Source of the DNA: Cyanidioschyzon merolae
Taxonomy: Eukaryota
Assembly (NCBI GenBank): GCA_000091205.1
Contig: AP006485.2
Length of the DNA: 64,000 nt
Strand: one strand, 5' to 3'
Under the pieces are notes generated by a model that was given only the letters and a program-made list of their open reading frames with translations, did no database searches and was not told the DNA's origin. Shown in pieces: positions 965 to 61,047 of the stretch (position 1 is its first letter; each line of letters starts with the position of its first letter). The position numbers and the translations under genes were made by a program.

Positions 965-1574
965 GCCATAAATGCTTTTCACTGCACCACGACTGAGTGC
1001 TGTGCTCGCCATCCTTGCGCAGCTGTGTTGTGCGTTTCCAGAAGACACCCACCACTCAGTAAAAGGCCACACGAACGTTAAGATGCGTTGGCGCCATTTC
1101 GCAGCGCTGCGCCACAGGGATGGACAGTTTATGGAATTATTGTCCAGTCTTCCGCGGGGCGTTCCCGCTCTTTGAGCAGCACCACGCTCGAGACGGACGC
1201 GCCATGTACTGCACGCACTGCGTGTGCTGTCTCCATGCTGTGCTCTGCGCCGATCATTGCCCGAAAAGTAGCTGCAAACGTCGCAGTAGGTACAAACTAA
1301 TCCACCTCGTGTCTTGTTCTTCCGTCTCTTCGAAATAACCGAATGTATATCAAATTCATGGATGCTCGTTGCAAGCTCCCGGTCGATTGAGCTTTTTTGC
1401 ACAGACGCCAGTAACATTTATTTCCCAAGTTGCTAATCGTTTCGCTTCCTCCGCAGTTCTAATGGCACTCCATATAGCACATCAGAGCTCAGATAGTACT
1501 CCTCATATTCTCCCAGGTTGCAGAGAAGCGCTGAGGAATCTTTTCTCATGGGGCTTCCAGTAACTACACCGGTA

Positions 1575-2135
1575 TCAGATCCAAACTGAACACTGAACTG
1601 TTCACTCACATCCTCTCTACCAGGTTTTCCGAGTATTTTACGTGGACAGCCCCGCCGTGCAACGAGCACCAACAACAGCTTACACATTCATGCACAGCTC
1701 AAGGATTCCCGATCGCCTCTTCAACGATAATTACCCGACGTCATCGCTCGGCGGCATCCTCTCAAGCTTATGCCGAAATTCCACTGATCTTGTCACGCCA
1801 AAGAATAACCCATTCCGTTCTAGAGACAAACCCTCATCCGCTCTTCGCTGCCGTCCACCATACACCGTTCCACTCCAGAATGATGCGCCTCACGGGGTCC
1901 GCGCCCTCGAGCGCAACCCGAACCGTTTAAAGGTCGACGCTAAGGCAGCCATGAGCACCCTTCGACTGCTGCCAGGGTGCCGGAGGGACGCAAGAGCCCA
2001 GCTCATAGAAAGCCGGATTTGGGGGCAGGAACGAGGATTATGAACAGAAGCTGAAAGAGACCGGAAATGCTGGTTAGGATGGTAACGGGAAGCGATCCCA
2101 GCTGTAGAATGTGTGCCCAAGATAGGTGAGTGGAC
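1575..2135 (+). repeat. R1 interspersed repeat, copy 1, variant A. It lies about 140 bp upstream of the Aos1 gene.
   Basis: Near-identical to segments at 5007-5567, 8044-8603 and 11375-11933. It begins at a TGAACtGTTCA palindrome and ends in ...CCCAAGATAG|GTGAGTGGAC. Confidence 0.85.
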
Positions 2136-2275
2136 GTGTTCCATTTTAGTTTGATCTTGGTCTGAAGCTCAGCCAGAGCTTTGTATCGTCTGCGCCGAGT
2201 CTCCGATTCTGATTCGGAATCTGTGTTGGCTAAAGCCTCACCGTTCAAAACTGAAATCTAGCTAGTCTTGCGTCT

Positions 2276-18027: not shown

Positions 18028-18081
18028 AACGAAAATGTTCTGACCATACAGTGCATAAATACATCCACTTCCAAACGCCTC

Positions 18082-19337: not shown

Positions 19338-19545
19338 GACCATCTGGTTTCTGTGGTGTGACTGACCTTAATGTGGAAACCAGTCTTTCTTGCATTATTA
19401 TGTAAAGAATCTATTCTACAGGCGATTAATCTAAGATCTATGAGGTACGTTCGATAGTGACTTCGATCTCCCGCTAAATACCGCAGTAATTTGGAAAAGA
19501 ATTGAGCTAGAAGAGTCGAATAATATTACAAAAGCGCGCCACTGG

Positions 19546-20415: not shown

Positions 20416-21886
20416 ATTACGCAAGACATTGCTGTCATCGGGATGTCGCATCATATGGCACGGAAGCTTCCCATTAAGGACTCATGAGACAAATCACAAT
20501 TGCTGCTTCATTAACTGGGCCATAACGTGTGCCATTTTCAGCTGTTTGGACATCCGTAAGGCGCAGCAGCAAAAGTGCCTGCCGAGGGAGACGCTTGTCC
20601 AAATACGAGGCAGTAGACCAAACGAGAATTACGTTTCCATCTCGGTCGCATGCCAATTTCGTCCTGAGCGTTTTTTTAAACATGATGCAGACGACGTTTT
20701 GTACTTTCTGGGAGATGGTGGCCGTGGAAAGCTCTGAAACGAGTTTGAGAATCAGGGAGCGTGTATCATTTATTTCGTCGTTCCTCTCATTATCTGGAAT
20801 TGAGTGTCTTATGTGCGCATCTAAGAGCATGAATGTAATATATAAGAATGGGTCGAATCAACTTCGCAAGACCGGAGAACTACTGGGCGACAGCAAATTA
20901 CGATTTCTTTCAGAGTCCGGCGTAGTTGTGGACTAAGTGTGGGACGCCCGCAGATCTTTGTCAAAAGGTGCCTCTACATTTGATTTATGCACAGCTATGC
21001 GGAACTGTTTGCAAACAGTGAAGAATATAGCGGATTATAAGAGGCTGAGAGCAGATAATCTTTTGCTTAAAATGCTTAATCAGAACGGACCACGCGAAAT
21101 TTCAGACAAGCTTTGTGGTTGCAAAGAGAAGTGGACCACCGTGATCGGATCTTACGCAGGCCAAATTCGAGTTCGCAGCAGGGCACGGAAATTTGGCTGT
21201 TTCATTACGTAAAGGTTAGTGAAGGGGATGCACCCCTCTGAGTTACATTCATTCAGACTGTGGGGTTTATAGCTTGACTGTGACAGTAAGAAAGTAAGTC
21301 CGAAAGCTGCGTGTGCGTTTTCGTCGCAGAGAAGGGCGATTCATAAACAAATATGTTTCTTGCCAGATATTGTGACGTATTCGAGATACACAGAAACCGC
21401 GATCTTCTTCCTTCTAAACCAGCTTCCATGAAGCGAGCGAACAACGTGTCCCTCTGAGCCTGGATAGCAGCGTTCATGGTTTGCATCAAGAATCACTCAG
21501 TGCCAAGAGAGCGTGATGAGCAACTCGCACTTCGTGGATTGATGATAATGGAGGCCCTTATTCGATCAAACGCAAAGATGTACATTTGCAAAGTGGAGGA
21601 CTCGTACACCTAAATATTTTTCACTGTTCAGCGAGTATGTTGCGCCAAGTGAGCATACAAATCAAAAAAAATGCGTGAAAAAATTGCCGCATCCATCTTC
21701 AAGGCGACCAACATTGGCGTATAACGATGCGCATAAGTGCAATGGCGGGAAACGCAGAAATCAGCTGTCCCTACAGATATTCCCTTTTAAAGCAAACAGA
21801 ACAGAGGGAGGAAATGGCATGAAATCTGCAAGGGTAACAGTGTAGGGGCAGGACCCTGTGGGTACCATTTGCTCACGCGCTAGGGT

Positions 21887-22489
21887 ACCGAAGTCAGCAC
21901 TAAATGGAAAAGATCTACGCAGACTGACACCGGCGTACATTCTCGTGTTTGGGTTGCTTCCCAATGAAGTCCAAACCAGCCTTTGAAGTATTTTTCTCTA
22001 CATCCGCTTCCTTCTTGCTCGATCCTGGTACCGACTTTAAATACGCTTGTTTCACATACAACTCCAGTTTTGATGGTAGCAGCCGAAAGATGTTGATGGC
22101 AGTGTTAGGGTCCCTGTTTCGGTGCCTCCGCCTGTAGTCCCAGCATTTGATGCTCATATGGCATTTGCCATCTGCGTTGAGCTCGCCAGTTTTATAATCG
22201 CTGTACATTGCCTCGTTGCGCTCTTCGTGGATGTGAAACTATTCTGCGGTTAGGTGTTCCTATGCGTCCACCACAGCTCGCAATCCGTGGGCGGCCCTGT
22301 GGCGCTTGAATGCTTGCGTCAGCGTATGGTCCACGTCGTTGATGGGTACAGAAGGCTCTCCTCGGTGCCGTCCGCCAATTCCGCGCCCGATACCGTACCC
22401 AGCAATCAGGAGCTTTTTCCGCACGACAACCTCAACGAGTGTTCTGTCCGGCGCACACGCAAGTTTATGGTCTTATTTTTCGTAAGGGC
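21887..22489 (-). mobile_element. Fanzor/TnpB-like 3'-terminal fragment (copy b). It is a 5'-truncated duplicate of the element at 26489-27600.
   Basis: ORF 21915-22208 (-) reads ...ELNADGKCHMSIKCWDYRRRHRNRDPNTAINIFRLLPSK, a CxxC zinc finger plus RuvC-III. Just upstream on the - strand, LIAGYGIGRGIGG sits at the RuvC-II position and is separated by a stop codon. Homology with copy c ends at 22489. Confidence 0.55.
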
Positions 22490-22784
22490 ACCATTCGGAA
22501 CGCTGGAGGGGTCCTATTCTCCCCTGACGAGAAGACCGGATCACGTGCTGGGATCAAATTGAAATTGGCGTTGCGATTTTGCGCTTTGCCGACAAATTAA
22601 ATTCGATGGCCGAAACCATTTCCGAAAGTTTGCGCATTGCCCGCTGGTATTCACAGAAATTTACTAGAATATTGTTCGGAGAAAGAGTCATTTTTATTGT
22701 AAAATGCTTTACGTTCGCATCGATATTATTCCCGACGGATAATTTACTTCAGGAAATGTTTGGCACGCCTCTACCGCGCGGTCT

Positions 22785-23699
22785 CTAGATTTCATGGAAG
22801 ACTATATCATGCTTTTCGTGCTTAAATAGATACTTCCGGTCACCTTCTGCTTCATCTGTTGGTTTCAATATTTTTAAAATCCCTGTGGCATGACGAGAAT
22901 GGCCGGATGCAAATCTCTCAACGCAGAATATCCGATCCGCTCGACTTCGTAGTTGCACGAGATTAGCCCTCTTTTCCATATCTTTATGAACCGCCAAAAG
23001 GATCGCAAGCGAGGGAACAGGAATCTCATTCGATTCCCTTCTGACCCAGTCCAAAAAGGAGATAACTGACGTCGTGTCGTCATCGACGAGCCGTTGGACA
23101 CCTGTTACACTGTGAATCACAAGCAGCGTACTACTCGTACGCGAAACGCTTTCTTGTTGGTGATATCCAACAACAAAGTGCAAGAATTCTTCAATACTAC
23201 TCCAGTGTTCTTTCGCATTGCGCACCTCCTCCGTTGTAGTTCTCACTGTGCACAGCTGTGGACCATCCGGCAGGCTTTGCCAGCTGTCAATGACGAGACG
23301 AGGCGTTGACACTGGAGCAGTGGAGGAATCCCTCCCTGAATAGTCGCAGGAAAAGCGGAAGAAACGCAATCTCGAAAGCGGCCTGGAGTTAGAGTCCTGT
23401 ACTTTGACCGCAGCACTTCCGTGTTGCCTTCCTGAATCTCGAGTAAAGAAGCTGGCGATTTCTTCCGTATCCACAACAACTATTTCAAGGTTTGAAAAGC
23501 CCGTGGCTTCTTGCAAAACCTTGACCACAAAAGGGGTTGCCGAACACTGCGCCTCGTCTTCAAGGAGAGTCACAAGTAACCGAGATACGCTTTGATCAGT
23601 GCAGGTTTCGTACTGGCTCCACCAAAAACTTGGAAATCCACAAGCCGCCGCCGTTGTCTTGTCCCAGCCAATCGTACTGGCCAAAAAGTCGCGCTCCAT
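22785..23699 (-). CDS. Hypothetical protein (304 aa)
   Basis: Uninterrupted ORF with an ATG start (complement of 23697-23699). No motif recognised. Confidence 0.35.
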   Translation of the reverse strand: MERDFLASTIGWDKTTAAACGFPSFWWSQYETCTDQSVSRLLVTLLEDEAQCSATPFVVKVLQEATGFSNLEIVVVDTEEIASFFTRDSGRQHGSAAVKVQDSNSRPLSRLRFFRFSCDYSGRDSSTAPVSTPRLVIDSWQSLPDGPQLCTVRTTTEEVRNAKEHWSSIEEFLHFVVGYHQQESVSRTSSTLLVIHSVTGVQRLVDDDTTSVISFLDWVRRESNEIPVPSLAILLAVHKDMEKRANLVQLRSRADRIFCVERFASGHSRHATGILKILKPTDEAEGDRKYLFKHEKHDIVFHEI

Positions 23700-23913
23700 A
23701 TCCAGTACGAGAGTCTGGCACTTTTAAGTGCATTCCCAATCCACGCAGGCGTCGGAATTCGCTCTTCCCCAGGAGGATCGTCACCCCGATTGATGTAGTG
23801 TCCCGTGAGGCAGTTTCCTTACGGCCGCGTTCTCGCTTAACGTGGTTCGCAACGAACGTTGATTCTGCAACACTGAGTCTATTATGATTGCACTGACTTA
23901 GAAAATCTCTAGT

Positions 23914-25149
23914 ATGCAAAGAGCGGCACAGATCCGATCATTGCTTAAGCGAGAGCAACTTACCAACGCAGGAGTTAGTTGCCCTGCCCGTGGCCTGGCA
24001 GAGTGTCTGCTTGGGAGAAACTCAAGCAGTTTTTCCCGGCAAACTGCCGTTATTGTCGGAGCATCTATGCGTTCGTTTTCTACAGAAGATGGCTTTTGTC
24101 GGGACGGGCAGCTCTCCCTGAACAACATTAGAGACCTGCCAGGCGCTCGAAAGCCGAAGAAACGTGTCGGTCGTGGTCGAGGCTCTGACTCCGGAAAGAC
24201 CTGTGGCCGGGGGCACAAGGGGCAGCATGCACGTTCTGGATCTTCTCTTCCCAGCAGGTTCTTTGAAGGCGGTCAGACGCCGCTAGTGCGCCGGATACCA
24301 AAGCGTGGCGGGTTTCCGCTAGTTGCACAAAGGGACCCGCTTCCTCTCAACTTAAGCCTCATCCAAAGTCTACTTGATAAGGGTCGCCTCCGCGTGAGCA
24401 AAGACGGTACTATTACCATGAAGTCGCTTTACGATTCGGGTGGAATCCTTCGATGCAGCAGAGCGAGGTTTAAGCTGTTCAACTATGGAGTCAAGCTGCT
24501 AGGTGGCGGTGCTAGGCAGTTCAGTGCACCTCTTCATTTCGAAGTTACGGACGTGAGTTCTTCTGCTCTCAGAAGGATACATGAATGCGGTGGCAGTGTA
24601 ACACTGGTGTACTACAATAGACTTGGACTACGGGCACTACTGAAACCCGAAAAATTTGACCACTGGACTGTCTTCCGCAGCGATTTGACGCATTTTCAAG
24701 GAGCAAACATCGATCCAAACACAAATCAGGCGATTGTTGTCTACGAGTATGACGATGTGCTCGAAAATGATGCATTATGGCCTCGTGGCGAACCGCTGCC
24801 GATTGAAGAGCAGTTCTCGCTTGATTTTGGAGCAACTTCGACCGATGAGAGCAAAACAGACCGGTTCACGCTGCCTTCCGACGAGCGTTTTTTTCGTATT
24901 TTAAGAAAGCTTTTCCATGATGATGAGAAGCTCATGTCGGAATTTCTCGCCAACACGCCGATGGATTTGGGCTCGATTCCATCGCAATCTACCCGACCGG
25001 TCATCGTGAAACGGCGAGTTCGCCTGCTTCCGAATCATGCGCGACCTCCTCCGAGGCTTCTTCTGCGCTATCCAGAATTCGATGCTTATGGCAGATCAGT
25101 GAATTTCTTGAAGCCGCGAGTGCCACTCGAGCATCAGGGAGCTCAATGA
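23914..25149 (+). CDS. Organellar, probably mitochondrial, ribosomal protein uL15 with long N- and C-terminal extensions
   Basis: [53 protein letters not shown] is the uL15 glycine-rich signature. The N-terminal ~90 aa look like a targeting extension. Confidence 0.75.
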
Positions 25150-26488
25150 AAAGGTATATCTGGTGGAATCAAGCGATACCTTCGCTCGTTATGTTAAAGC
25201 CCAACACAAAATTGACTGGTGCAGTTCTTGCTTGCGCTATTTCATCCAGAATGCGGTTGAAATCCGCAGCTGTGCATCCTTGGCATATCCGAGAGAGCCT
25301 GGCTGGAGACCCGTTTACGGTGCGTGAATTGTGTGGGTCTTATCAGGTGCATCGGTCGGAAGGTTTAGGTTCCCCAAATCAATCTTTCCTTTTTCCAATG
25401 TGAGTCATTGTTGTGTCACATGACTCGATTCTGTATCTTAAACACCTATCCATATTCAACTCTGGGTTGTCATTTCTGGATGCCGACTGATTGCGATAAA
25501 CATCCTCGCCAGGAGAAGGTTCCTGGGTTCCCGTAACAATTCTGTCGTTTGGATTTTCACGTATTCTAAACCGTATATCACTCATGCGAAATCTGGGAAG
25601 ATCGAAACTAAGAGCTCTATGCATTATGAGGCAAAAATTAGGCCATGTTGATCGTCCATAAAGGAAGCCGATGCACTTCTTGTATCATTCGCTGCTTGAA
25701 AATTGGTCGAAGAGTTCAACCTTCATTTTTGAGAGTGCATCATTCAGCGGGCGGTCATTCCGCAGTTTCGTTGCGTCACGGATTCGACGGATCGTTTGCG
25801 ATCCGTCGAATGGTATTCTTAGTGATGGAAACCATGAGCATGCCAGATCGTCTCAACTTGCTGAATGCGGAAGAATCATTTCTCTTTCAGATCAGAGAAC
25901 TTTCGAATTTATTTAACGTCGCCACCTCTAGAATCCCAGAGACTCGTGTGTTCGCGATTGACCTATCTGGCTGCCAGTTTTATTTATTCAGCTCATAAAT
26001 CTATGCAGCTGGCAAATGAGATGCCTTCCAATTGGCGAGATGGTCGCAAGCAATTGAGAATTGCGATGATATCTGTAAGCACTTTTGAGCTCTGTGGGTG
26101 TACGTATGAAATACCTCATTTGACGAGGATAGAGACGCACCACCGCATAACCTTGTGCGCTGTACAAGCCAGCACATTCTGCAGACCGTGATACCATCTG
26201 GCATGCGCTTTCTCATCGGAGTATTTAAGCTTCTGCCTGCAACAAAGTTTCGTTTTTTCTTCTGGGCCGCGTCCGCCAACGAAAGGAGACCACGACGAGA
26301 AATGTTGTCACGTTCGCATAGCGGGGAAGAGATGTTTGAACTCTGCGAAGATGCTTCATCGTGAATGATTTGATAAGTAGGAACTCTCTTAAATATACAC
26401 CTCTCACGGCGAGCGGATTCGACGTCTCTGCCCCAGACACCTGCAGAGCACGCAAGCAGCAGTCGCTGCGAACTGCTCGATCCATCAA

Positions 26489-27600
26489 AGTCAGCACTAA
26501 ATGGAAAAGATCCACGCAGACTGACACCGGCGTACATTCTCGTGTTTGGGTTGCTTCCCAATGAAGTCCAAACCAGCCTTTGAAGTATTTTTCTCTACAT
26601 CCGCTTCCTTCTTGCTCGATCCTGGTACCGACTTTAAATACGCTTGTTTCACATACAACTCCAGTTTTGATGGTAGCAGCCGAAAGATGTTGATGGCAGT
26701 GTTAGGGTCCCTGTTTCGGTGCCTCCGCCTGTAGTCCCAGCATTTGATGCTCATATGGCATTTGCCATCTGCGTTGAGCTCGCCAGTTTTATAATCGCTG
26801 TACATTGCCTCGTTGCGCTCTTCGTGGATGTGAAACTATTCTGCGGTTAGGTGTTCCTATGCGTCCACCACAGCTCGCAATCCGTGGGCGGCCCTGTGGC
26901 GCTTGAATGCTTGCGTCAGCGTATGGTCCACGTCGTTGATGGGTACAGAAGGCTCTCCTCGGTGCCGTCCGCCAATTCCGCGCCCGATACCGTACCCAGC
27001 AATCAGGAGCTTTTTCCGCACGACAACCTCAACGAGTGTTCTGTCCGGCGCACACGCAAGTTTATGGTCTTATTTTTCGTAAGGGCTCTGTGGAAAGCGG
27101 TGTCGTCCTTGATAAAGCGAGTACCGGAAGGAAAATCATCAAATTCGAAGATCAAGTCTGGAAGTTTCGACCCGAGAACGCTCTCTTTATGCAACCTGGC
27201 GACGCATTCTCCTGTGAAAGTGACTGCCACGATGACTGGAGTCCATCTCAAAGACCCTTTTCCAAGCACACGGCAGAGACGAGGGCCCCTTGGGGCATAC
27301 TCCGTGGTGCGTGTCATGCTGCAGGCGAATGCTGTTTCGTCGATGACCGCAAAAGAGTGGCGGGATTTGTCCCTCGAACGGGATCGATTATCAGAAGTGA
27401 CAAGTTCGGTGAACGCTCTGCATGATGTTGTGAGCAAGTCGTCAAAGGACTAGGTTGCGTGCTTTTCCTCACCAATCCAACCGCGCGAATTGCTGCACCC
27501 ACGAGATGACCTGGAACAGAGTGATCAACAACTTGAAGAGCGCCTGGTTTGAGCATGCTGCGCATGAGGAAATGAGAAGAGTGGAGAATTATACGTCTGC
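26489..27600 (-). mobile_element. Fanzor/TnpB-like nuclease pseudogene (copy c). It is more complete than copy b and is frameshifted.
   Basis: ORF 27314-27565 (-) has ...LSLLIIDPVRGTNPATLL, an IDPG-type RuvC-I. ORF 27003-27437 (-) continues in another frame and ends ...ALTKNKTINLRVRRTEHSLRLSCGKSS, as in copy b. ORF 26497-26805 (-) has the same zinc finger plus NRDPNTAINIFRL RuvC-III. Sequence identity with copy b spans 26489-27088. Confidence 0.55.
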
Positions 27601-28054
27601 ACTGAATAATGAGGTTGCTTATGTTCTTTTACGAACCATTGCTCGAGTGCTCTGCGAATCATCTTGATTGCGGCAAGGTAAAGAATTCCAGCGGCAAATA
27701 GTTGATGGAGCCACTTCGGAAAGACGACAGAGAATTCTAGAGCTACTTATGAATCCGTGCATCCTTATGGCTGCACTTTGAATGTCACGGCTGTACATCT
27801 AACAGAGGTTTGGAAAGATATCGAGAGGAAAAAGCTCCATCTAGTTCAGTGCTCCATGTTGATCTGACATGGGCGTCGTCGTCGAATGAACTCGTATCAC
27901 CGCTGTGCGCGTATCGGGGCCCGTGACTACGCGAGCTCGGGTTCCGCGCCGGCGAAGTTCAGACCGCGAGCTCCGTATTGGTTAATCCATCTTCGAGAGC
28001 CGCGACAAAGAAAGCTTTTCCAGGATAACTTTTGAGGCCGAATCTCGTACAGAA

Positions 28055-35353: not shown

Positions 35354-35739
35354 AGTTATCTGAGTACTGCGTTATGACTTTCCTGCAGGAGCCATGCAGT
35401 CCTCTATGCACTGTTCATAAAAAATATATGTGCAATAGGCAACTTGTGTACGATCTATGCGGTAAATTGCATAGTAGGTTCGATATCCTGCCATGCACAG
35501 CAGCGCAGGTGAAATATAATCGAGGTGAAAGACCATAACGATCTGGCGTCAAGGACGCGAATGCAGTAGCCCTCACGAACGCTTTAGATTTTCGCTGTGG
35601 ATTTCCAGTGCAAAGTCTGCTGCACATAGCCACCTAAACTTTCACCTGGAGGTGCGACCTTCTCTCGAGGAGCAGGCCTTTAGAGTGCATCCGCAAGCCA
35701 AGCGGGCACCATGGCCGAGTTTCGCTCTGTAGGCCATTC

Positions 35740-38132: not shown

Positions 38133-38845
38133 TCGTTGCATGTTGTTTCCTGGTTTTGTACGGCTTGCTGGAAAGCGTCTCGGGCCGCTTGTGTCCAGTT
38201 GTGATGATGTAAATAGAATCGAATTCATCACGTTCTATACCGAGGCCGCTGCAGAGCTCGTGAATAACTCTCAGACCGAAATGATGAGCAAATGTGAATG
38301 GAGCTTTGTGATGCCGCTAAAATATCTGCATTATAAGCTAGGAGCGGATGCTGAAGTGGCTATGTCCTTATCTTCTAAATGCATCGAACCTGGCGGGTAG
38401 CGCACCTCTGTAAGCTGATGTTCAACACTCGAGCGGTCCGGGTTCCGGCTCCAAAGAGACCCCTATTTGGGTCCAGTGATTGCGAAAAGTCTTTTTCGAA
38501 GCAGAGCATTTTCGTCAGCAGGAGTGAAGCTTGTTTTCCTGCTCTGAACAAACATGCTGCGCATCCAAACAACCATGATGAAGCGCACGTCGGTGAGTTC
38601 CTGGTCGATGAGGATGCCACGAACGAATATTTTTCAAAGTCTGTCTCGATATAACATTCTTTACAAGATCTGGCTGTACGCTCGCTCACGGAATGCGATG
38701 TTTCTCATTTGGTTCTCTTGGTTAAATTCACAATTCGAATCATACACTCATTTGAGAATAAATGTTAGAATGCCTCTTTGAAGGGATTACATTCTCAAGT
38801 TCGAGTCTGTTCCCAATGTCATCAGAATTAGCCTTTGCGGCCTTA

Positions 38846-39100
38846 TCTGCGACCGCTCCTATTATTCTTTGTTATCTTTGACTTGGAATACGACGGTCTC
38901 TCGTTTCCTCTTAGTCCCGCTGTCAGTGGTCGAAAGATGTTGATGGCAGCATTGAATTCCCGATTTCTGAGTTTCCAGCCGCTGGCGACGCATTTGATGC
39001 AAAAACAGTAGTTGCCATCGACGCACGGCTTGCCATTTTCATCTTTTTTGTATGCAGCCTCTTTGCGCCCTCTCGCAGCGGTGACACTTGGTTGTCCTCA
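38846..39100 (-). mobile_element. Fanzor/TnpB-like C-terminal remnant (copy d)
   Basis: Manual - strand translation gives ...KKDENGKPCVDGNYCFCIKCVASGWKLRNREFNAAINIFRPLTAGLRGNERPSYSKSKITKNNRSGRR*. This is a CxC…CxxC zinc finger plus RuvC-III. A stop codon lies immediately upstream. Confidence 0.5.
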
Positions 39101-39324
39101 GGTGTTCCTAAATATCACCCACAGCCTCTCATCCGTGGACCGCCTCGTGCTCCGTGAACGCTTGGTTTAGCGCTCGGCACATACACTTGACGGATACAGA
39201 TGGCTACTTTCGATATCCTCCACCGATTCCAGCTGCGGTGCTGTGCCCTACGATCACGTGCCTCTTACAGGTGATCTCCTCCATGAGTACCGATTCTGCT
39301 GGAGGCGCGAGTCCGCAGTTTTCC

Positions 39325-39440
39325 ATTCTATTGACAATTAGTGTAACGCTATGCTGTCCATGATGAATCGTGAATTGGAACCATCCTATTGACAAGTAGT
39401 GTAACGCGATGCTCTCTATGATGAATATTGATTTGGAAGG
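39325..39440. repeat. Two-unit tandem repeat of about 58 bp
   Basis: TTCTATTGACAATTAGTGTAACGCTATGCTGTCCATGATGAATCGTGAATTGGAACCATCC is followed by TATTGACAAGTAGTGTAACGCGATGCTCTCTATGATGAATATTGATTTGGAAGG. Confidence 0.7.
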
Positions 39441-40168
39441 TTAATTCTACTGATGCAGCATATGTCGACACATTTTAATGTGACCATGCCACTTTCGCGC
39501 AAGGCGATAAAGTGCACTCCAAACGAGAACATCTCTTTGGTGACTTAAGTCAGAGTCTATGATTCTTTTCAATGTAAACAGTACATGGAGGCCCCTGTGA
39601 GCATGTCCAGTGAGACGCATCATCTCGTTCTCGCATCTCTTTCCGCCGAGGACCACCAAGAGGGCAGGAAGTGTCTTCAGAACGGAATCGATGATTTGAG
39701 AAAGAAATATTCAGCGAAGTTGAGCTATAAGTCAATAAAGAAGTCGCCTCTGGGCTTCGCTGAATTTTCATGCTCGTTAACTCAGCAGCGCTAATTGCTC
39801 TGCTAGTGAGTTACCTTGAATCAGAAAGATCGAATACACAAAGAATGCAAGATTTGAGCATGCGACACGTTATTAACGGAGAATCTTGGAGGCTTCCATT
39901 CATGAACTTGATGATACTGTCGTTTATTCTACGAATTCTTGTTCGAGAACTTCCCGTATCATCTTGTTAACGTCAGAGGAACGAATTCCAGCGAAACAGC
40001 ATCTGAGGAGGCACACCGAAAAGGCGATCGAGAATCCTAAAGCTACGTATGAATCTTTAAACCCTTATTGCTGCCTTTCGAATGTCAAGATTATACGTCG
40101 AAATTTATTCTCAAAAACCCGAAAGCCAGGAACAGAACAAGCAGTTCAGTGTCCCATTTTTATCCACC

Positions 40169-40939
40169 CTAGTCATAGGTGTAAAAACCTCTTTTAGTCT
40201 TGCGCCCGAGCCAACCAGCATCAACATATTTGACCAGCAGTGGGGATGCTCTATACTTTACAGAACCCCCGGGGAGCCCTTGTTCAAGCACACGCAAAAT
40301 ATTGAGGCAAGTATCGAGGCCGATAAAGTCGGCTAGTGCCAACGGACCCATGGGCACGTTCGTTCCGAGCTTCATAATTCGATCGATATCCTTCGCATCT
40401 GCGGTCCCTTCACGTAGCGTTTCAATCGCTTCGTTGATGTAAGGCATGAGTATTCGATTCGAGACGAAACCTGGGCTATCAGACACACACCGCGCGCACT
40501 CTTTTCCCATTTTACGAGCAAGTGACTCCGTGACTTCAACAGTATTTTCCGACGTTCGTAACCCACAGACGATCTCTACGATATTCATTCGTTGTACGGG
40601 GTAAAAGAAATGCATGCCAATGAAGTTTTCCGGAAACTTCGAAGTAGCCGCGAGTCTCGTAATCGATAACGACGACGTGTTACTCGCCAAGACGACATGT
40701 TCCGTCCAGACTCGGGCTTCTTCGAGAGCTTTGTAAACAGCAACTTTTGTCTCGAACACTTCTGGTACGGCCTCGATAAGGAATTCGGCACCTCGAAGGA
40801 CGTTAATGTCCTTTTCGGGTTCTTTTACGGGATCGTACCGTAGGACGGTGCAACCAGACCTCTGGCCGAGGACTTCAGCAATACCGGAGCCCATCTGACC
40901 CGCAGCGCCCAGTACGCCGACAATCCTAGGAACCTGCAT
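40169..40939 (-). CDS. 3-hydroxyacyl-CoA (3-hydroxybutyryl-CoA) dehydrogenase
   Basis: The N-terminal Rossmann fold is VGVLGAAGQMGSGIAEV. ...FFYPVQRMNIVEIV..., ...SPGFVSNRILMPYINEA... and ...MKLGTNVPMGPLALADFIGLD... are typical HADH/Hbd motifs. The protein is 256 aa. Confidence 0.85.
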   Translation of the reverse strand: MQVPRIVGVLGAAGQMGSGIAEVLGQRSGCTVLRYDPVKEPEKDINVLRGAEFLIEAVPEVFETKVAVYKALEEARVWTEHVVLASNTSSLSITRLAATSKFPENFIGMHFFYPVQRMNIVEIVCGLRTSENTVEVTESLARKMGKECARCVSDSPGFVSNRILMPYINEAIETLREGTADAKDIDRIMKLGTNVPMGPLALADFIGLDTCLNILRVLEQGLPGGSVKYRASPLLVKYVDAGWLGRKTKRGFYTYD

Positions 40940-44194: not shown

Positions 44195-45508
44195 ATCCAC
44201 AGCAAGAAGCTTGCGTTTCTCAGGATCTCATAGAAACGCCAGTCGTCTCGTATAAAATTGAGGTTCAACGACTTGCTAGCAAAATGGTAACCTGGGGTCC
44301 ACTCGCACGCTCCAACAACGAGTGATGCTCCGTTCACGGAGTCGCGCGACTTTCTCAAGCTTGACAAACGCAGCGATCGAAAACCTGGATTGGCTTTCCG
44401 CCAAAGGCTGTTTGCGGGTTGTTTCCAGTCTCGCTCCGTTCAAATACACTCCCATACAATGCACAGACAGGTACCTTACGTGCTCTCCGGCGCCGAGCGA
44501 GCACGAAGCGTAGTCCACTGTGCACGGTAAGATGTGCTCCGGACGATGGTCAGTTTATAACCTCGGATTCGGATCATCAGATACACACCATTTGGTGTCG
44601 ATCGTGCACCGTTACACTTATACGATTTGCCGTTCTGCCGTCAATCGACTACGACTGGTTCACACAGCAACGCATATCGCAGATGAGTGCCGCTATGGCA
44701 GTCTATATACTAGCCTCCAGCATCCGGTACACTATCGTGGAGAGTGAGTGCTCATTGAGAAACTCAGGTTCATAGGGAGAACGGCTGCTATAGAGATTGC
44801 GTAAACTTCTCCAAATCACCCGAGACATGCAGCTCTACATCAAGTGGCCCCATTAAATCGCATTCGCGTGACAGAGCTTGCAACGGAAAGACTGTCGAGC
44901 AGGCATATCGTTCGTGCGGGCTTCGGTGTGACGCAATGTGATGAGGCACTCGTTTATGAAAGGAGTGCAGGTTGTGCAAGCCCGAGCTACACATTCTTCA
45001 ACATGCGCCACGCATGTTGTGGGATCATCGAAGGTTCTTCGCTTTGGAAAGCTTTCGAACAAAGTAACTCTAGAGAGTAGAGAACGACGAGTGTTGATCC
45101 TCGCAAACGCCTCCGCAACACGATGGAACTGTTTTCATGAGTCAGCGTTCGCATGCTCTCAACATTGCAGGCATCTTCATGACAAGCTGTTACCATTGGA
45201 GGCGTCTTCGCCAATGTATATGATGCGGACATCAGATCCCATCTTAACACGACACTTGTATTGGTACTGCATGACAGTTCTGCTTTCGTGCAAAGACCGG
45301 AGCGGCACATCCGGCATTGCAGCAGGCATTAAGATTACGCTCTGCAACCAGGCGCGCTTTTAATCTATCCAGCGTCTAGCTCTCCGAGTGAAACTGCCTA
45401 GCGATTTCAGGTGCCCTGGTGCAATTTTGAAAAGGGCCTCATCGTATCGGAATAAAATGGATTTGGCCCTCTGACTCTCGCGTAGATACGGGAAGCAATA
45501 CCACCTCT

Positions 45509-46556
45509 TCCGGTCTCTTCCAGCTTCTCTTCATCATCCTCGTTCCTGCCCCCAAATCCGGCTTTCTATGAGCTGGGCTCTTGCGTCCCTCCGGCACCCT
45601 GGCAGCAGTCGAAGGATGCTCGTGGCTGCTTTAGCGTCGACCTTTAAACGGTTCGAATCGTGCTCGATGCATCCCATACACGGATGGCAGTCGGAAACGG
45701 CAACGCGCTCGCCGCTGCCTCTTCTCCGTCAACATCCCCGATGCGCTCTTCGCACCAGTGGCACATGGCTCAGGTCAGGTGTCCCTGTACGCCACCCGCT
45801 CCGAGCACATCATCCGCGGAGCGGCTGTGGCGCCTCCACGCTCACGCCAGTGTATCGTGCATGCCGTCGGCGGGCACGGAAGCCTCACCTCGATGCCGTC
45901 CGCGAGTGCTGCCCCCGCCGCGGTCCCCGACAATCACGAGCTTCTCCTGGGCCATCAGCTCGGCGAGTACGCTGTACACTGGGCGTGCAGGCACACGCTC
46001 TTCGATTCCTTCCGGGGGATCCGCGCAAGGCGGTGCTGCGCCTCACGAAACAAGCACCCGTGATGTGGCATCCGGGGCGGACGCCATGTCGGACTGTTTC
46101 GGTCTGTGTGCGCTCCCTTCGTGCCGAGCGGTAACGCATGCTCGGCTCGGAGCGAACGCTGCGATGACTAGAGTCGCAGCTGAGGGCGCATGCCGATGCA
46201 GACAGACGAGAGGGGAGCGCTGGAGCACGCGCACCCCGTGGGGCGCATCATTCTGGTGTGGAACGGTGCATCGCTGACGGCAGCGAAGAGCGGATGAGGG
46301 TTTGTCTCTAGAACGGAGTGGGTTATTCTTTGGCGTGACAAGATCAGTGGAATTTCGGCATAAGCTTGAGAGGATGCCGCCGAGCGATGACGTCGGGTAA
46401 TTATCGTTGAAGAGGCGATCGGGGATCCTTGAGCTGTGCATGAATGTGTAAGCTGTTGTTGGTGCTCGTTGCACGGCGGGGCTGTCCACGTAAAATACTC
46501 GGAAATCCTGGTAGAAAGGATGTGAGTGAACAGTTCAATGTTCAGTTTGGATCTGA
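45509..46556 (-). repeat. R1 repeat, copy 5, inverted. It carries a ~570-bp GC-rich insertion/replacement at 45656-46225.
   Basis: 45509-45655 and 46226-46556 are the reverse complement of the R1 consensus. Between them, 14 bp of R1 are replaced by 570 bp of ~68% GC sequence with no clean ORF. Confidence 0.8.
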
Positions 46557-47008
46557 TGAGGGGCTGGGGTCTCCCATCTGGCGTCCGGCAATATTTGCGC
46601 TTCTGGGAGCTTCAGGTTCCATGCAGTGCTCTCGCACCATCCATAAATCGGTGCATATGCGCTTGGCACGGCTCTGCAGCGTGCCTGCAGGCGCAAGCGA
46701 CCGCGATACTGCATGACTCTAGACGCCCTCAGCTGGTACGAGAAAACATATTGGAAATTTTTAACTGTGGAAGCATGAAATTCCTCCCGGAGAGCATACA
46801 CGAGGATTGGATATCACAGCGTGAATTTTCGCCCTGATACCGGCTATTGCAGCAAGATGTATTCGATCATCAACACAATGCATCAGTGACGATAATGCGC
46901 CTTCACTTAGACGATGCACCCAATGTTTCTCACCAGCTCCGCTAGACGATAAGAAGACGCTTCGAATGCAACGATCCAAGCCAGCGTGCTATAGCTCGAA
47001 TAATCGAC

Positions 47009-58250: not shown

Positions 58251-58789
58251 GTATCCGGGTATTTGCAGGACCACACAGACAAGGTGTTGAGCAACAGAGA
58301 CGCCCGTGATGGCTGCGATCCTCGCTTTTGCCTTCCGTGAGATGCTCAACGTGTCGTTTTCAACCATTGAATGCAAGCAGTTTTGAGGATTCGGTTTTTG
58401 GCTTGGATCGCATTTACTTTTCTGTGTTCCTCTCGCATCTGAGTACTGGGATATGACAGACCTGAAGGGGGAATGGAGTCCACCTTGCACTGTTCAGTGA
58501 AGAATATACATCCTGCAAGCAACTCATCTGTGCTCAATACGATAAATTGCATCCTGATTTCGATCTTCTGCTTTAAGCTACAAAAACAGCATTCGAATGC
58601 TTTCAGCGGTGGTCAAACAAAATTGAGTTGAAAGACTATAAAATGGAACAGTGAACATTTTATGCTGTTCCTGCTCTACAATCCTTTCCGAAATTTTTTC
58701 AGGTCGACGAACTCGACCTTCGAAGTGCGACAACAAAGAGTTACGAATCCACACCTAATTTAACGATTCTCGATTGTCTCTTCAGCGTG

Positions 58790-59893
58790 ACTCCTTTGAT
58801 GTTTTTCAGTTGGAATTCGCCAGGTCACCGGAATGAAATTGAGTTGCCACGCAATCGAGCAAGAATTCATAAAAAGCAGAAGTCATTACAAAATCTATGC
58901 AAACAATTCTCCACTCCGCTCCTTTTTTTCATTCCGGACGCTCGAATCATGCCCAGTTCCGATCTTTCTGTTTCAAGGCAATTTGCTGGTGCAGCAAGAA
59001 TTGCAGCTGGATTGACATTGAAAACAAACTTCGATGTCATCCCTTCAAGACTTTTTCACAACCTCAAGCCGAAAGCTCACTGAACTTAGTACGCAAAATA
59101 ATCGATGCCGTTCGAGAGCCAAGTCGCACTCTTTTCATCGAAATCGGCGAAACGGCGTTCTACAGCAGCTAGATACCTCTCACAGGACTTGCTCACACAG
59201 GCTCCTGTCTCTTCTGTTTTCTTAGAGAAGCATCATGGCCTCGGGCTTTAGCTATTACCGCAATCGTCTCGAGGAAACACTGCCTCATCGTTTTCCAACA
59301 ACGGAGCGCCGACAGTTTGAAACTTCTCGACTTGTTCTTGACCTGAATAATCGTACGGGTACTTGTTTCATCATGGATAATATCGCGTTCCACAAATCCT
59401 GTATTGAACAGAACAGCGTGCGCCTGCTTGTACAGCGGACACAGTACTTGCCAAGGGGATCGCCAGGAGGATGCCCATGCTCTTATGGGACGGCTCCGAG
59501 CGCGGAAACGGAAGCGAGCATCGAGAGCTCTCTTCCGTCTCCGTCGAGGGCACGAACCGAATTCTGGAGCAAGCTGTCACGCGCCATAGTGCAGTTATCC
59601 AGGGAAAGGTTGGGTATTCTGTGGGAATATCTGACTACAGCAAACAGTCACCGCCGCGAAACGCCCACCTAGGCTTCACAAAAAATGCGAATGCCAAGCG
59701 AGGCGTAGATTGCAAATGCCACGTGTGTATCACATGCTCCGATAGCAGCAAGAAACCGAGAGATAGGGATTTTAATGGTGCCATCAACATCTTTCGACTA
59801 CAGACAACGGAGCTGGAGGGAAGCGAGACACGAGCATATTTCATGCTGGAGATGAGTGGCACGAAAAACGGAAAAAATCGAAGAACACATTAG
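58790..59893 (+). mobile_element. Fanzor/TnpB-like nuclease, C-terminal half (copy e). It is frameshifted and probably a pseudogene.
   Basis: ORF 59471-59893 reads ...AVIQGKVGYSVGISDYSKQSPPRNAHLGF...KRGVDCKCHVCITCSDSSKKPRDRDFNGAINIFRLQT. This gives a RuvC-II-like stretch, a CxC…CxxC zinc finger and a canonical RDxNGAINI RuvC-III. The overlapping ORF 59235-59672, in another frame, has ...RLVLDLNNRTGTC..., a possible RuvC-I. Confidence 0.55.
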
Positions 59894-61047
59894 CAGAAAT
59901 GCTACTAATGATGACAATTGGAAAGCCCAAAACTTTAATGCATACACTCGCGATAGACAAGTGGACTCGTTCCATTTTATTCAGGCATGAGTATATGCGC
60001 CATATCCTGCGGCCGTGCGTTTTGCTTAGAAAGACTGCGGGCGATTAAATTATTATTAAAGGTCATCCTTCAACAAAAGAGAACTGGATGAGCAACCTGC
60101 CTCGTCACTTGGGCCTCTCTGCTCGCTTAGTCGCCTCTTCAAATGGAGCGCGTCACCAGAACATATTATGGTCGAAGATCGCGGTGCTTGCCGACGTCCA
60201 GTCGGAGCGTGTACATTTGTACGAGAGGCTCAGCATGTGCCTTTTGGGGCCCTTGCGCTTTCGGCGCAGGATATTTGCAGAGCAGCGCCATTCTGAAGCA
60301 GCCCTGACGTACTTCGGAGCGCGAGCCCAGCGATGAACGCCCCCAAGCGAGGCATCTGATAACTGTCGTATATATATTCAACATGCCACGAAACAATGAA
60401 TAGATGATGGACGTCTCCGAGCGATACATCTCACAATTGCCGCATGTAAGTTTGAGCTGCGAATGAGGTTCGCCGGCGAGCGCAAGCGGCGCTCGTCCAC
60501 GAGAACGTCCCCGTCCGTAGCGGAAGAAGCAGCGCGCCTCTTTCTGAGCTGGTCGGACGCATACAGCTTCAATACACCGGCAGGTTGCATCGCAAAAGCG
60601 GCCCTCTTCCCGCTCGAGTACTGCTGAGGCGCCTGAAACGCCCGAGAAACCGGATGCTCGATGTTCCGCGTCGCAGGAAAATGTGTCGTTCTTTAGATTG
60701 AGCCGCTATTCCTAATCAGGATGCAGGATCGGGTCTCGTGGAACGTGACGACCTCTATAAAGGAGCAGAGGTATCTTACTTGCTTATTGTCTCCGTTTAT
60801 GCATCCAGAGTAAGCGCTTTTCAGAGTCGATGGCTCGTGGTAGATCCGGCAAATTCGCTGTCGGCACTTGACACGGCGTTTCTGAACTACGGCAGACAGT
60901 GGCAGGTCAGATGTTGTTTGGATTCGGATTGACCAGTCTGATCGAAACTAGGGCATACGAGCGCTAACGTACTGGATCCTCTCACTTTGGATAGCGTCTA
61001 GTTTATGCTGAGATCCACCAGTGGGTTGAAAGACTAGAGAGCACGTC

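What the first reader, a model, noticed from the sequence alone, without database searches (positions are those of the whole stretch)
26489..27600. TnpB/Fanzor-like RuvC nuclease pseudogene with a 5'-truncated duplicate at 21887-22489
Three adjacent - strand ORFs in shifting frames give an IDPG-type RuvC-I (LLIIDPVRGTN), a RuvC-II-position segment (LIAGYGIGRG), a CxxC zinc finger and a canonical RuvC-III (NRDPNTAINIFRL). This is the hallmark architecture of IS200/605 TnpB and its eukaryotic descendants, the Fanzor RNA-guided nucleases. A 600-bp copy at 21887-22489 is nearly identical and ends abruptly at both edges. Its 3' edge lies only 28 bp after the stop codon, which fits the transposon right end, where a TnpB-type omega RNA would terminate and a flank-derived guide would begin. 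The frameshifts and stops imply decay, so intact family members may exist elsewhere in the genome.
Basis: partly seen in the sequence, partly recalled or inferred. Interest (0 to 1): 0.8.

Follow-up and report, generated by a model that had tools for sequence, protein, structure and literature searches.

The report
Decayed mariner–Fanzor transposon remnant
This is a dead, internally deleted copy of a mariner-type jumping gene of the red alga Cyanidioschyzon merolae that once carried a Fanzor RNA-guided nuclease; only the last quarter of the nuclease gene survives, joined to the front of the transposase gene, so it is an ordinary transposon relic and not a complete nuclease pseudogene.

Summary
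The window is Cyanidioschyzon merolae 10D nuclear DNA. The ORFs, the motifs and the 599-bp duplicate (26488-27086 = 21891-22489, 1 mismatch) are real.

The locus is not a collinear RuvC-I/II/III nuclease gene. It is a ~1.4-kb "short form" (26483-27876, - strand) with two parts:
- The first ~230 codons come from an IS630/Tc1-mariner DDE_3 transposase (hhalign E 5e-20).
- The last ~175 codons come from a Fanzor1 (hhalign E 4.5e-26). They are joined out of frame.

The GYG/GE segment and RuvC-III are true Fanzor1 residues. The zinc finger has lost most of its cysteines.

Intact 3.5-kb relatives occur in hot-spring metagenome contigs. They carry TIRs, a TA duplication, a 317-aa transposase and a 765-aa Fanzor1. 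The Fanzor1 model matches solved Fanzor1 structures (Foldseek E 1.7e-16).

At least three more diverged short forms and four 585-bp MITE-like derivatives lie in the window.

Its near-identity is best explained by gene conversion.

Fanzor1 in this alga was reported in 2013 (CMe-1A). This is a second lineage, now tied to a mariner-type transposase. Interest is modest.

The parts
26483..27876 (-). Copy c1: whole 'short-form' non-autonomous element, about 1.39 kb. This is the finding.
   Evidence: The ends were placed by aligning to the intact elements and to the MITE copies. The interior matches the intact transposase and Fanzor1 profiles.
27081..27798 (-). Transposase-derived part. It holds two helix-turn-helix motifs, the first catalytic Asp (FAVIDETAF) and the second (FIKDDTAFH). 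It is read through three frames. The third catalytic residue is deleted.
   Evidence: hhalign of A1 columns 2-259 against the intact transposase (residues 3-260 of 326) gives prob 99.3%, E 5.3e-20. NCBIfam IS630 E 0.013 and Pfam DDE_3 E 0.068 are weak on their own.
26497..27075 (-). Fanzor1 C-terminal remnant. Segments in order: LACAPDRTLVE, KKLLIAGYGIGRGIGGRHRGEPSVP, EHLTAE*FHIH (zinc knuckle 1, lost), CHMSIKC (knuckle 2, degenerate), NRDPNTAINIF (RuvC-III). Two in-frame stops.
   Evidence: hhalign of A1 columns 255-386 against Fanzor family A6 columns 629-771 of 797 gives prob 99.7%, E 4.5e-26. tblastn of L019 Fanzor residues 543-759 hits 27060-26545.
26483..26560 (-). 3' subterminal blocks and right terminal-repeat remnant: AACCCAAACAC .. 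GAATGTACGCC .. TTTTCCATTT .. TTGATG.
   Evidence: The same blocks (GAxCCCxACxC, GAATACGCC, GTTCCATT, GGTGTA) are present in the nine intact or near-intact family members examined, whether they fall before or after the stop codon.
27845..27876 (-). Left terminal-repeat remnant (ACGCCCATGTCAGATCAACATGGAGCAC).
   Evidence: Alignment with copies c2-c4, the MITEs and the L024 terminal repeat TACAACCGTGAAAATTAAAATGGAACAC.
21886..22489 (-). c1dup: a solo copy of the Fanzor-derived 3' part only. It is 99.8% identical to c1 over 21891-22489. It starts within about 15 nt of the transposase/Fanzor junction.
   Evidence: There is no homology to the transposase part upstream of it.
38745..40181 (-). Copy c2: a diverged short form with TA on both sides, a 58-bp internal tandem duplication, and EHLRTTKCHRCE and NREFNAAINIF retained.
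58625..59993 (+). Copy c3: a diverged short form (FIMDNIAFHKS; CKCHVCITC; RDRDFNGAINIF).
45435..46566 (-). Copy c4: a G+C-richer short form and the closest relative of the MITE-like copies. The 3' end is approximate.
1561..2163 (+). MITE-like 585-bp derivative M1, made of the 5' 344 bp plus the 3' ~240 bp of a c4-like element. Sister copies lie at 5003-5589, 8030-8626 and 11362-11954.
   Evidence: The copies are 97-98% identical to one another and 92-95% identical to c4.

Best explanation
The locus is a dead, non-autonomous 'short form' of a Tc1/mariner-IS630-type DNA transposon. The autonomous form carries two genes in tandem: a DDE_3 transposase of about 320 aa and a Fanzor1 RNA-guided nuclease of about 765 aa.

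Origin (inferred). An internal deletion of about 2 kb removed the transposase C-terminus, including the third catalytic residue, and the first ~520 codons of Fanzor, including RuvC-I. The two remnants were joined out of frame. This short form kept both terminal repeats. It was multiplied by a transposase supplied in trans and then decayed neutrally; copies are now 65-72% identical. A further deletion gave 585-bp MITE-like copies.

What is shown:
- the two-part homology;
- the shared junction across the window copies and many related loci;
- the termini;
- the absence of any open frame.

The duplicate. The 599-bp copy at 21891-22489 is a solo 3' fragment of such an element, lying as a direct repeat 4.6 kb from c1. 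Its near-identity to c1 is maintained by ectopic gene conversion, not by recent transposition. This is inferred from paralogues being closer to each other than to their orthologues in another strain.

Function. The relic encodes no functional nuclease or transposase. In the intact relatives, the transposase presumably moves the element by cut-and-paste into TA sites. The Fanzor1, with an RNA made from the 3' end, presumably cuts DNA in the way shown for solved Fanzor1 proteins. That step is inferred from family membership only.
For: - Organism: two window proteins are exact matches to C. merolae 10D BAM79062 and BAM79057.
- Two-part homology: hhalign to the intact transposase gives E 5.3e-20 and to the intact Fanzor family E 4.5e-26.
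- Intact two-ORF elements: L019/L020 and L023/L024. Their transposases match Pfam DDE_3 at E 1.6e-25 and 4.1e-28.
- The Fanzor family profile hits solved Fanzor1 proteins 9cf0 (E 1.5e-7) and 8gkh (E 1e-3).
- The AF2 model of P0024 (pLDDT 81.5) has SpuFz, PpFz and GtFz as top Foldseek hits (E 1.7e-16 to 3.6e-9), followed by Cas12f.
- The P0024 element is identical in at least 5 different flanks. It ends ...GGTG|TA and begins TA|CAAT....
- The same junction (transposase residue ~227, Fanzor residue ~520) recurs in the window copies and in a dozen or more related loci. The same -1 frame change is seen in c1, c2 and c3.
- Gene conversion: 10D c1 differs from c1dup at 1 position. The contigs carrying the c1 junction (L004) and the c1dup junction (L005) of another strain are identical to each other in the repeat. 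Both differ from 10D c1 at the same 7 of 599 positions, while the flanks differ at only 4 of 2988 and 2 of 303.
Against: - Direct Pfam and NCBIfam scans of the window peptides alone give only weak DDE_3/IS630 hits and no TnpB hit. The assignment therefore rests on profile comparison with relatives found here.
- The exact deletion breakpoint is ambiguous over about 15-60 nt, because both frames show some similarity there.
- L004 and L005 come from short-read metagenome assemblies. These may collapse the two repeat copies, which weakens the gene-conversion argument.
- The start of c1dup coincides with the transposase/Fanzor junction to within about 15 nt, and this is not explained.
- No intact copy was found in C. 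merolae-like contigs, so the transposase source for the amplification is unknown.
Confidence: 0.88

Rival explanations
1. One reading: one decayed TnpB/Fanzor gene holding RuvC-I, RuvC-II, zinc finger and RuvC-III in order, of IS200/605 ancestry.
For: The peptide LLIIDPVRGTN resembles the Fanzor 'DPG' motif. The C-terminal motifs are truly Fanzor-like.
Against: - The 27081-27798 region aligns end to end with a DDE_3 transposase.
- The LLIIDPVRGTN peptide aligns to FLSEFMEARRSH, upstream of the IDET motif.
- In copy c3 the equivalent reads KIIDAVREPS, in the same frame as the DDE motif.
- The true RuvC-I (GLDPGR, residue 433 of P0024) lies in the segment with no counterpart here.
- The ends are TIR/TA mariner-type.
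Confidence: 0.04
2. The short form arose not by internal deletion of a two-gene element. Instead a Fanzor 3' fragment, as a separately mobile or recombining '3' module', was inserted into or recombined with a transposase-only element. c1dup would be a free copy of that module.
For: c1dup begins within about 15 nt of the junction and ends at the element terminus. That is an odd coincidence for a random truncation, roughly a 2% chance.
Against: - Intact relatives already have transposase then Fanzor in the same order and orientation. One deletion therefore suffices.
- The other loci whose tblastn match to the query covered only the Fanzor part (L026, L049, L068) were not examined for a terminus at the junction.
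- The MITE copies have a different internal breakpoint.
Confidence: 0.08
3. c1dup is a very recent 5'-truncated transposition or duplication product of c1, which would explain the 99.8% identity. It is not an old copy homogenised by gene conversion.
For: There is only one mismatch in 599 bp. Both edges of the identity are sharp.
Against: - The c1dup upstream junction is present in another strain's contig (L005). The repeat there carries the same 7 differences as the c1-junction contig L004.
- The identity stops 5-7 nt short of the terminus, and the last nucleotides differ (TGATG vs CGGTA).
- The MITE copies show the same pattern, a homogeneous interior with diverged outermost ~12 nt.
Confidence: 0.2
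4. The short form is a working gene: a transposase-Fanzor fusion made by programmed -1 frameshifting.
For: The same -1 frame change at the junction is seen in c1, c2 and c3.
Against: - Every copy examined has several additional stops and frameshifts.
- Among the roughly 60 related loci first fetched (L004-L069), no short-form copy has an ORF longer than 175 aa carrying a family motif.
- A fusion would lack the third transposase catalytic residue and the Fanzor RuvC-I.
Confidence: 0.02

Closest known systems
Fanzor1-carrying Tc1/mariner elements such as PUl-1 of Pythium ultimum (Bao & Jurka 2013, PMC3627910)
   Same: The intact relatives have the same plan: about 3.5 kb, short terminal inverted repeats, a TA target duplication, and a mariner-type transposase gene followed in the same orientation by a Fanzor1 gene of about 765-800 aa. 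The PUl-1 transposase is homologous to the one here (blastp E 5e-14).
   Different: It is a different host lineage (Cyanidiophyceae and hot-spring metagenomes). The proteins share only 22-29% identity. The window copy itself is a deletion derivative without either complete gene.
CMe-1A / CMe-1 Fanzor1 of C. merolae (Bao & Jurka 2013)
   Same: It is in the same genome and the same protein class (Fanzor1). It is likewise old, with many decayed copies.
   Different: It is a distinct lineage. CMe-1 against the intact Fanzor here gives only 26% identity, E 5.5e-7. The 5' 905 bp of the CMe-1A consensus has no match in the window. CMe-1A was described as lacking terminal repeats and as unclassified. 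Here both this lineage and CMe-1-like copies sit next to DDE_3 transposase relics.
Solved Fanzor1 nucleases SpuFz1 (8GKH), PpFz (9CF0) and GtFz (9CER)
   Same: The intact relative P0024 has the same fold (Foldseek E 1.7e-16, TM 0.49-0.61). It also has the same conserved D (DPGR), E and RD motifs.
   Different: Sequence identity is only 13-16%. RNA guide and cleavage activity are untested. The window copy keeps only the region from the GYG/GE segment to the C-terminus.
Bacterial IS200/IS605 and IS607 TnpB
   Same: They share the RuvC-III 'RDxNAAxNI' box and the zinc-ribbon region (Pfam PF07282, E 1.7e-5 for the intact relative, just under the curated cut-off).
   Different: There is no Y1 or serine recombinase partner and no subterminal hairpin ends. 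The carrier is a DDE TIR transposon. TnpB structures rank far below Fanzor1 in the fold search.
MITEs and internally deleted non-autonomous Tc1/mariner elements
   Same: Both termini are retained while coding capacity is lost, a uniform deletion junction is shared by many copies, and there are shorter 585-bp derivatives.
   Different: Long 3' stretches are retained (about 600 bp in the short form, about 240 bp in the MITE-like copies). These cover the region where a Fanzor guide RNA would be encoded. The outermost ~12 nt are more diverged than the interior.

Membership tests
Fanzor1 (eukaryotic TnpB-like RNA-guided nuclease) | RuvC-I aspartate in a DPG-type motif | tested here: not met
   The window copy has no counterpart of Fanzor residues before ~520. 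The 'IDPV' peptide belongs to the transposase part. Intact relatives have an invariant GLDPGR.
Fanzor1 (eukaryotic TnpB-like RNA-guided nuclease) | Conserved G...GE segment before the zinc finger (the Fanzor1-specific Gly/Glu noted by Bao & Jurka) | tested here: met
   LLIAGYGIGRGIGGRHRGEPSVP aligns with PVIIGYGTGRGNGGGHKGEASVP. G566, G574, G577 and E578 are invariant or nearly so in the family.
Fanzor1 (eukaryotic TnpB-like RNA-guided nuclease) | [TS][TS]-x-x-C4 zinc finger | tested here: not met
   c1 reads EHLTAE*FHIH in place of EHxTTQKCHRC, and CHMSIKC in place of CEHC. One Cys is in register. Copy c2 still has EHLRTTKCHRCE.
Fanzor1 (eukaryotic TnpB-like RNA-guided nuclease) | RuvC-III 'RD' box (RDxNAAxNI) | tested here: met
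   NRDPNTAINIF in c1, RDRDFNGAINIF in c3 and NREFNAAINIF in c2 align with RNRDFNAAINI.
Fanzor1 (eukaryotic TnpB-like RNA-guided nuclease) | Fold like solved Fanzor1 | tested here: met
   Tested for the intact relative P0024 only. Foldseek top hits are SpuFz, PpFz and GtFz. The window fragment was not modelled.
Fanzor1 (eukaryotic TnpB-like RNA-guided nuclease) | Open reading frame capable of giving the protein | tested here: not met
   There are stops and frame changes in every window copy.
Fanzor1 (eukaryotic TnpB-like RNA-guided nuclease) | Guide (omega) RNA encoded at the 3' end, reaching the transposon right end | tested here: inconclusive
   Conserved 3'-specific non-coding blocks exist. 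Folding gives z = 0.01 for c1 and -1.44 for L024. The only consensus stem is invariant, with no covariation. There are no RNA data.
Tc1/mariner-IS630 (DDE_3) transposon | HTH plus DDE_3 transposase | tested here: met
   The N-terminal ~230 residues are present (hhalign E 5.3e-20 to intact transposases, which hit Pfam DDE_3 at E 1.6e-25 and 4.1e-28).
Tc1/mariner-IS630 (DDE_3) transposon | Complete DD(E/D) catalytic triad | tested here: not met
   IDET and KDDTAFH are present. The PPYSPxxxPIE region with the third residue is deleted.
Tc1/mariner-IS630 (DDE_3) transposon | Terminal inverted repeats | tested here: met
   Degenerate repeats are present: AACATGGAGCAC at the 5' end and TTTCCATTT..GATG at the 3' end. 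They correspond to the L024 repeat TACAACCGTGAAAATTAAAATGGAACAC and its inverted partner.
Tc1/mariner-IS630 (DDE_3) transposon | TA target-site duplication | tested here: inconclusive
   It is clear for the intact P0024 element (5 flanks), for L023/L024 and for c2 (TA on both sides). c1 has CG and GA at the predicted ends.
IS200/IS605 or IS607 TnpB element | TnpA (Y1 or serine recombinase) partner and hairpin ends, no terminal inverted repeats | tested here: not met
   The partner gene is a DDE_3 transposase and the ends are TIR/TA.
CMe-1A family of C. merolae (Repbase / Bao & Jurka) | About 80% nucleotide identity to the CMe-1A consensus, or close protein identity to CMe-1 | tested here: not met
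   The only CMe-1 match inside any copy of this family is a 41-residue RuvC-III stretch in c3 (E 0.44). The strong CMe-1 hits lie at other loci. The consensus 5' region has no hit.

The most novel reading that the evidence does not exclude
The non-autonomous derivatives keep unusually long 3' stretches: about 600 bp in the short form, the same stretch alone in c1dup, and about 240 bp in the MITE-like copies. These stretches hold 3'-specific blocks that are conserved across the whole intact family.

The most novel reading not excluded is that this 3' module encodes the Fanzor guide RNA. On this reading the defective copies are, or were, guide-RNA carriers. A Fanzor supplied in trans would cut their empty or variant sites, and repair from another copy would follow. 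That would produce the homogeneous interiors and diverged outermost nucleotides seen here, that is, Fanzor-driven homing acting on non-autonomous elements in a eukaryote.
Probability: 0.06. Interest if true: 0.7.

Novelty: new member of a known kind. Interest (0 to 1): 0.3.

Why it matters
For the scan, this finding can be filed as a transposon relic, and the 'complete RuvC nuclease pseudogene' reading should be dropped.

There are three modest gains for the field:
- C. merolae holds a second Fanzor1 lineage besides CMe-1.
- Both lineages are physically linked to IS630/Tc1-mariner transposase remnants. This gives a classification to elements left unclassified in 2013.
- An apparently active, intact 3.5-kb mariner-Fanzor1 element of this lineage (P0024 and its transposase) occurs in several contexts in hot-spring metagenomes. 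Its 40-nt 3' tail and conserved blocks make it a compact candidate for testing Fanzor1 guide-RNA biology from a thermoacidophilic setting.

The paralogue-versus-orthologue pattern also gives a small, clean example of ectopic gene conversion in a genome known for efficient homologous recombination (my own background knowledge, not tested here).

Tried and rejected
- Pfam and NCBIfam scans of the raw and stitched window peptides gave no TnpB/OrfB hit. They gave only weak DDE_3 (E 0.068) and IS630 (E 0.013) hits.
- The large protein search with the stitched window copies returned only the window's own 102-aa ORF. The PDB profile search with them returned nothing.
- phmmer of one intact Fanzor against the PDB returned nothing. 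The family profile was needed.
- The IMG/VR viral contig scan with the Fanzor profile found no relatives.
- Rfam (gathering threshold) and tRNA scans of the window found nothing.
- Single-sequence folding of the 3' 251 nt showed no excess stability. RNAalifold on the 3' ends gave only an invariant 6-bp stem and no covariation.
- I looked for transposase-part homology upstream of c1dup. There is none above shuffled controls, so my by-eye resemblance there was dropped.
- I tested whether the window copies belong to CMe-1A or TE-N2_CMe using the published consensus. They do not.
- I tried to hand the stitched alignment to the exhaustive representative search, to look for intact ~430-aa fusion proteins.
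- I tried to name the host of the intact elements from neighbouring genes. The neighbours have only metagenomic records, mostly without family matches.
Full report
**Source of the window**

The window is nuclear DNA of the red alga Cyanidioschyzon merolae 10D. Two window ORFs are exact matches to BAM79062 (3-hydroxybutyryl-CoA dehydrogenase, 40169-40939) and BAM79057 (mitochondrial ribosomal protein L15, 23914-25149). Both lie on a 481,791-bp record.

**Checking the observation**

- The three - strand ORFs and the quoted peptides exist.
- The duplicate is real: 26488-27086 equals 21891-22489 at 99.83% over 599 bp, with a single mismatch.
- tblastn of the locus's own peptides against the window showed it is not unique. 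Collinear, much more diverged copies lie at about 38745-40181 (-), 58625-59993 (+) and 45435-46566 (-).
- Reading all three frames of these copies side by side showed a common order:
  - an N-terminal helix-turn-helix;
  - a second helix-turn-helix;
  - 'IDETAF';
  - about 86 residues later, 'F-I-x-D-x-x-A-F-H';
  - the same -1 frame change;
  - 'LLIAGYGxGRGxGG..GE..VP';
  - 'EHLxTxKCHRC';
  - a second Cys knuckle;
  - 'RDRDFNxAINIF'.
- The first half reads like an IS630/Tc1 DDE transposase and the second half like Fanzor/TnpB.
- Library scans of these decayed peptides alone were almost silent: DDE_3 E 0.068, IS630 E 0.013, and no TnpB model.

**Finding intact relatives**

A pattern scan of JGI metagenome contigs with the alignment of the window copies returned 66 loci.

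- Most are further short, decayed copies in contigs that are C. merolae-like. For example, L004 and L005 are 99.7% identical to the window.
- Four loci (L019/L020, L023/L024) hold two intact ORFs in tandem:
  - A 317-326-aa protein with IDETGF, LMDNIAFHK and PPYSPWFxPIEN. It matches Pfam DDE_3 at E 1.6e-25 and 4.1e-28.
  - A 763-780-aa protein with GLDPGRVNLYT, RPVIIGYGxGRGNGGGHKGE, WEHxTTxKCHRC, CEHC and RNRDFNAAINI.
- A protein search with the second ORF gave 23 relatives, all metagenomic.
- Their profile hits the solved Fanzor1 proteins of Parasitella (9cf0, E 1.5e-7) and Spizellomyces (8gkh, E 1e-3) collinearly.
- An AlphaFold model of P0024 (pLDDT 81.5) has SpuFz, PpFz and GtFz as its best structural matches (E 1.7e-16 to 3.6e-9), well ahead of Cas12f and TnpB.
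- The same element (P0024 plus its transposase) is found, sequence-identical, in at least five different flanking contexts. Identity stops exactly at ...AACATAGGTG|TA on the right. On the left, the 115 nt upstream of the transposase start, beginning TA|CAATCTTG..., are shared by all five.
- L023 and L024 likewise diverge right after ...CTGGTG|TA, and carry 26-28-nt imperfect terminal inverted repeats.

The autonomous form is therefore a Tc1/mariner-type element of about 3.5 kb with a TA duplication that carries a Fanzor1. This is the arrangement Bao & Jurka described for PUl-1 and others (PMC3627910). The PUl-1 transposase is detectably homologous to ours (E 5e-14).

**What the window copy is**

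- Columns 2-259 of the window-copy alignment match residues 3-260 of the intact transposase (prob 99.3%, E 5.3e-20).
- Columns 255-386 match columns 629-771 of the Fanzor family (prob 99.7%, E 4.5e-26).
- tblastn of the intact proteins against the window gives the same picture: transposase residues about 1-228, then Fanzor residues about 520-760.
- The same junction recurs in a dozen or more related loci.
- The locus is thus an internally deleted, out-of-frame 'short form', about 1.39 kb (26483-27876).
- The true Fanzor RuvC-I lies in the deleted segment.
- The GYG/GE segment, the E-x-x-T box and RuvC-III are authentic. The zinc finger has lost most of its cysteines in this copy.
- Every copy has stops and frame changes. 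Among the related loci first fetched (L004-L069), no short form has a motif-bearing ORF longer than 175 aa.

**Ends, and the 3'-edge claim**

- The window copies keep the inner part of the terminal repeat: AAAATGGAACAC(TGAAC) on the left and GTTCCATTT on the right.
- The nine intact or near-intact members examined share, on the 3' side only, the blocks GA(T/A)CCC(C/A)AC(G/A)C, (G)AATACGCC, GTTCCATT and the terminal GGTGTA. This holds whether the blocks lie inside or beyond the Fanzor stop codon.
- c1 has degenerate versions: AACCCAAACAC, GAATGTACGCC, TTTTCCATTT, TTGATG|GA.
- The identity between c1 and its duplicate ends at ...GCTGACTT, 5-7 nt before the predicted terminus. The remaining nucleotides differ: TGATG versus CGGTA.

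**The omega-RNA idea**

Whether an omega-type RNA is or was made there cannot be decided here.

- The 3' 251 nt of c1 fold no better than shuffles (z = 0.01).
- L024 gives z = -1.44.
- The only consensus helix (UACGCC with GGUGUA) never varies, so it gives no evidence either way.

**The duplicate**

- Upstream of 22489 there is no homology to the transposase part. c1dup is therefore a solo 3' fragment.
- It starts within about 15 nt of the transposase/Fanzor junction. I cannot explain that coincidence.
- Its near-identity to c1 contrasts with 65-72% identity among the other copies.
- Contigs from another strain carry the c1 upstream junction (L004) and the c1dup upstream junction (L005).
- Their repeats are identical to each other and differ from 10D c1 at the same 7 of 599 positions. 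The unique flanks differ at only 4 of 2988 and 2 of 303 positions.
- Paralogues being closer than orthologues indicates concerted evolution by ectopic gene conversion between two old direct repeats, not a recent transposition.
- The caveat is that short-read assemblies can collapse repeats.
- Four 585-bp MITE-like copies (1561-2147, 5003-5589, 8030-8626, 11362-11954) show the same pattern. Their interiors are 97-98% identical, yet the outermost ~12 nt at both ends are recognisably terminal-repeat-like but much more diverged.

**Relation to what is known**

- Fanzor1 in C. merolae was reported in 2013. CMe-1A has about 150 copies and a 3169-bp consensus, with no terminal repeats found and its class unknown (PMC3627910).
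- The lineage here is different. CMe-1 against the intact Fanzor gives 26% identity, E 5.5e-7.
- The window also holds CMe-1-like relics, each downstream of a DDE_3 transposase relic. Both lineages therefore appear to be mariner-type two-gene elements.
- This is an incremental addition, not a new kind of system.

**Verdict**

This is a real feature, but an ordinary one: a decayed, non-autonomous mariner-Fanzor1 remnant. It is a new member of a known kind, and interest is about 0.3.

Noticed in passing
window 12254-15408 (+): A heavily decayed, near full-length CMe-1-like Fanzor1 copy. tblastn of CMe-1 residues 4-728 gives ~51% identity in two frames at 13276-15408. It is preceded by a ~1-kb region that is repeated elsewhere and carries a weak transposase relic at 12935-13114 (E 0.021 in a small search). 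It looks like a dead two-gene element of the CMe-1 lineage.
   Followed up: partly
window 18076-19474 and 34092-35491 (-); also 57288-58572 (-): These are CMe-1-type 'short forms': a DDE_3 transposase relic (residues ~160-265, still including the PPYSP/PIE region) followed by the CMe-1 Fanzor C-terminus (residues ~613-723). The first two copies are 95.9% identical over 1400 bp and lie 16 kb apart. The same architecture is seen in loci L015, L031 and L050.
   Followed up: partly
window 33074-33376 (-) and 31570-31911 (-): Further isolated relics: transposase residues ~167-267 and CMe-1 Fanzor residues ~508-621. The whole window is unusually rich in remains of these two element families.
   Followed up: no
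window 1561-2147, 5003-5589, 8030-8626, 11362-11954 (+): Four 585-bp MITE-like copies, 97-98% identical, in the same orientation and spaced 3.0-3.4 kb apart with unrelated DNA between them. Their outermost ~12 nt at both ends are far more diverged than the interior. They are not TE-N2_CMe, since there is no match to the CMe-1A 5' consensus.
   Followed up: partly
window 40169-40183: The predicted left end of copy c2 (TA|CACCTATGACTAG...) overlaps the last four codons and the stop codon (T-Y-D-stop) of the 3-hydroxybutyryl-CoA dehydrogenase gene. The transposon end may supply the gene's C-terminus and stop. The end assignment rests on an ~11-nt similarity and could be chance.
   Followed up: no
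window 39323-39438: A 58-bp tandem duplication (86% identical) inside copy c2. It duplicates the 'FIxDSIALH' second-Asp region of the transposase part.
   Followed up: no
L071-L076 (P0024 element), L070 (P0031): The intact mariner-Fanzor1 element sits in at least five different gene-dense contexts. L071 holds a second tandem gene pair (a 320-aa DDE_3 protein and an 803-aa protein) in the opposite orientation. Neighbours are mostly ORFans, plus a 2625-aa Peptidase_S74 protein, a UvrD helicase, an ATG8-like protein, ankyrin repeats and a lipase. This mix is reminiscent of giant viruses, but no hallmark gene was seen and IMG/VR had no match.
   Followed up: partly
L005 versus window 21891-27086: Contig L005 joins the upstream flank of c1dup (22792-22490) through the repeat to the downstream flank of c1 (26487-23500). 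This is either an assembly path error across a 599-bp repeat, or evidence of a circle or tandem variant formed by recombination between the two direct repeats.
   Followed up: no
L004/L005 versus window 26488-27086: Between strains the repeat differs at 7 of 599 positions (1.2%), while adjacent unique DNA differs at 4 of 2988 (0.13%). The repeat changes about nine times faster, which would fit sequence imported by conversion from other family members.
   Followed up: partly
3' ends of L017, L024, L071, L077-L082: Sequence blocks GA(T/A)CCC(C/A)AC(G/A)C and (G)AATACGCC, 35-75 nt inside the right end, are conserved across Fanzor proteins only ~40% identical. They have no mirror image at the left end. 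UACGCC can pair with the terminal GGUGUA.
   Followed up: partly
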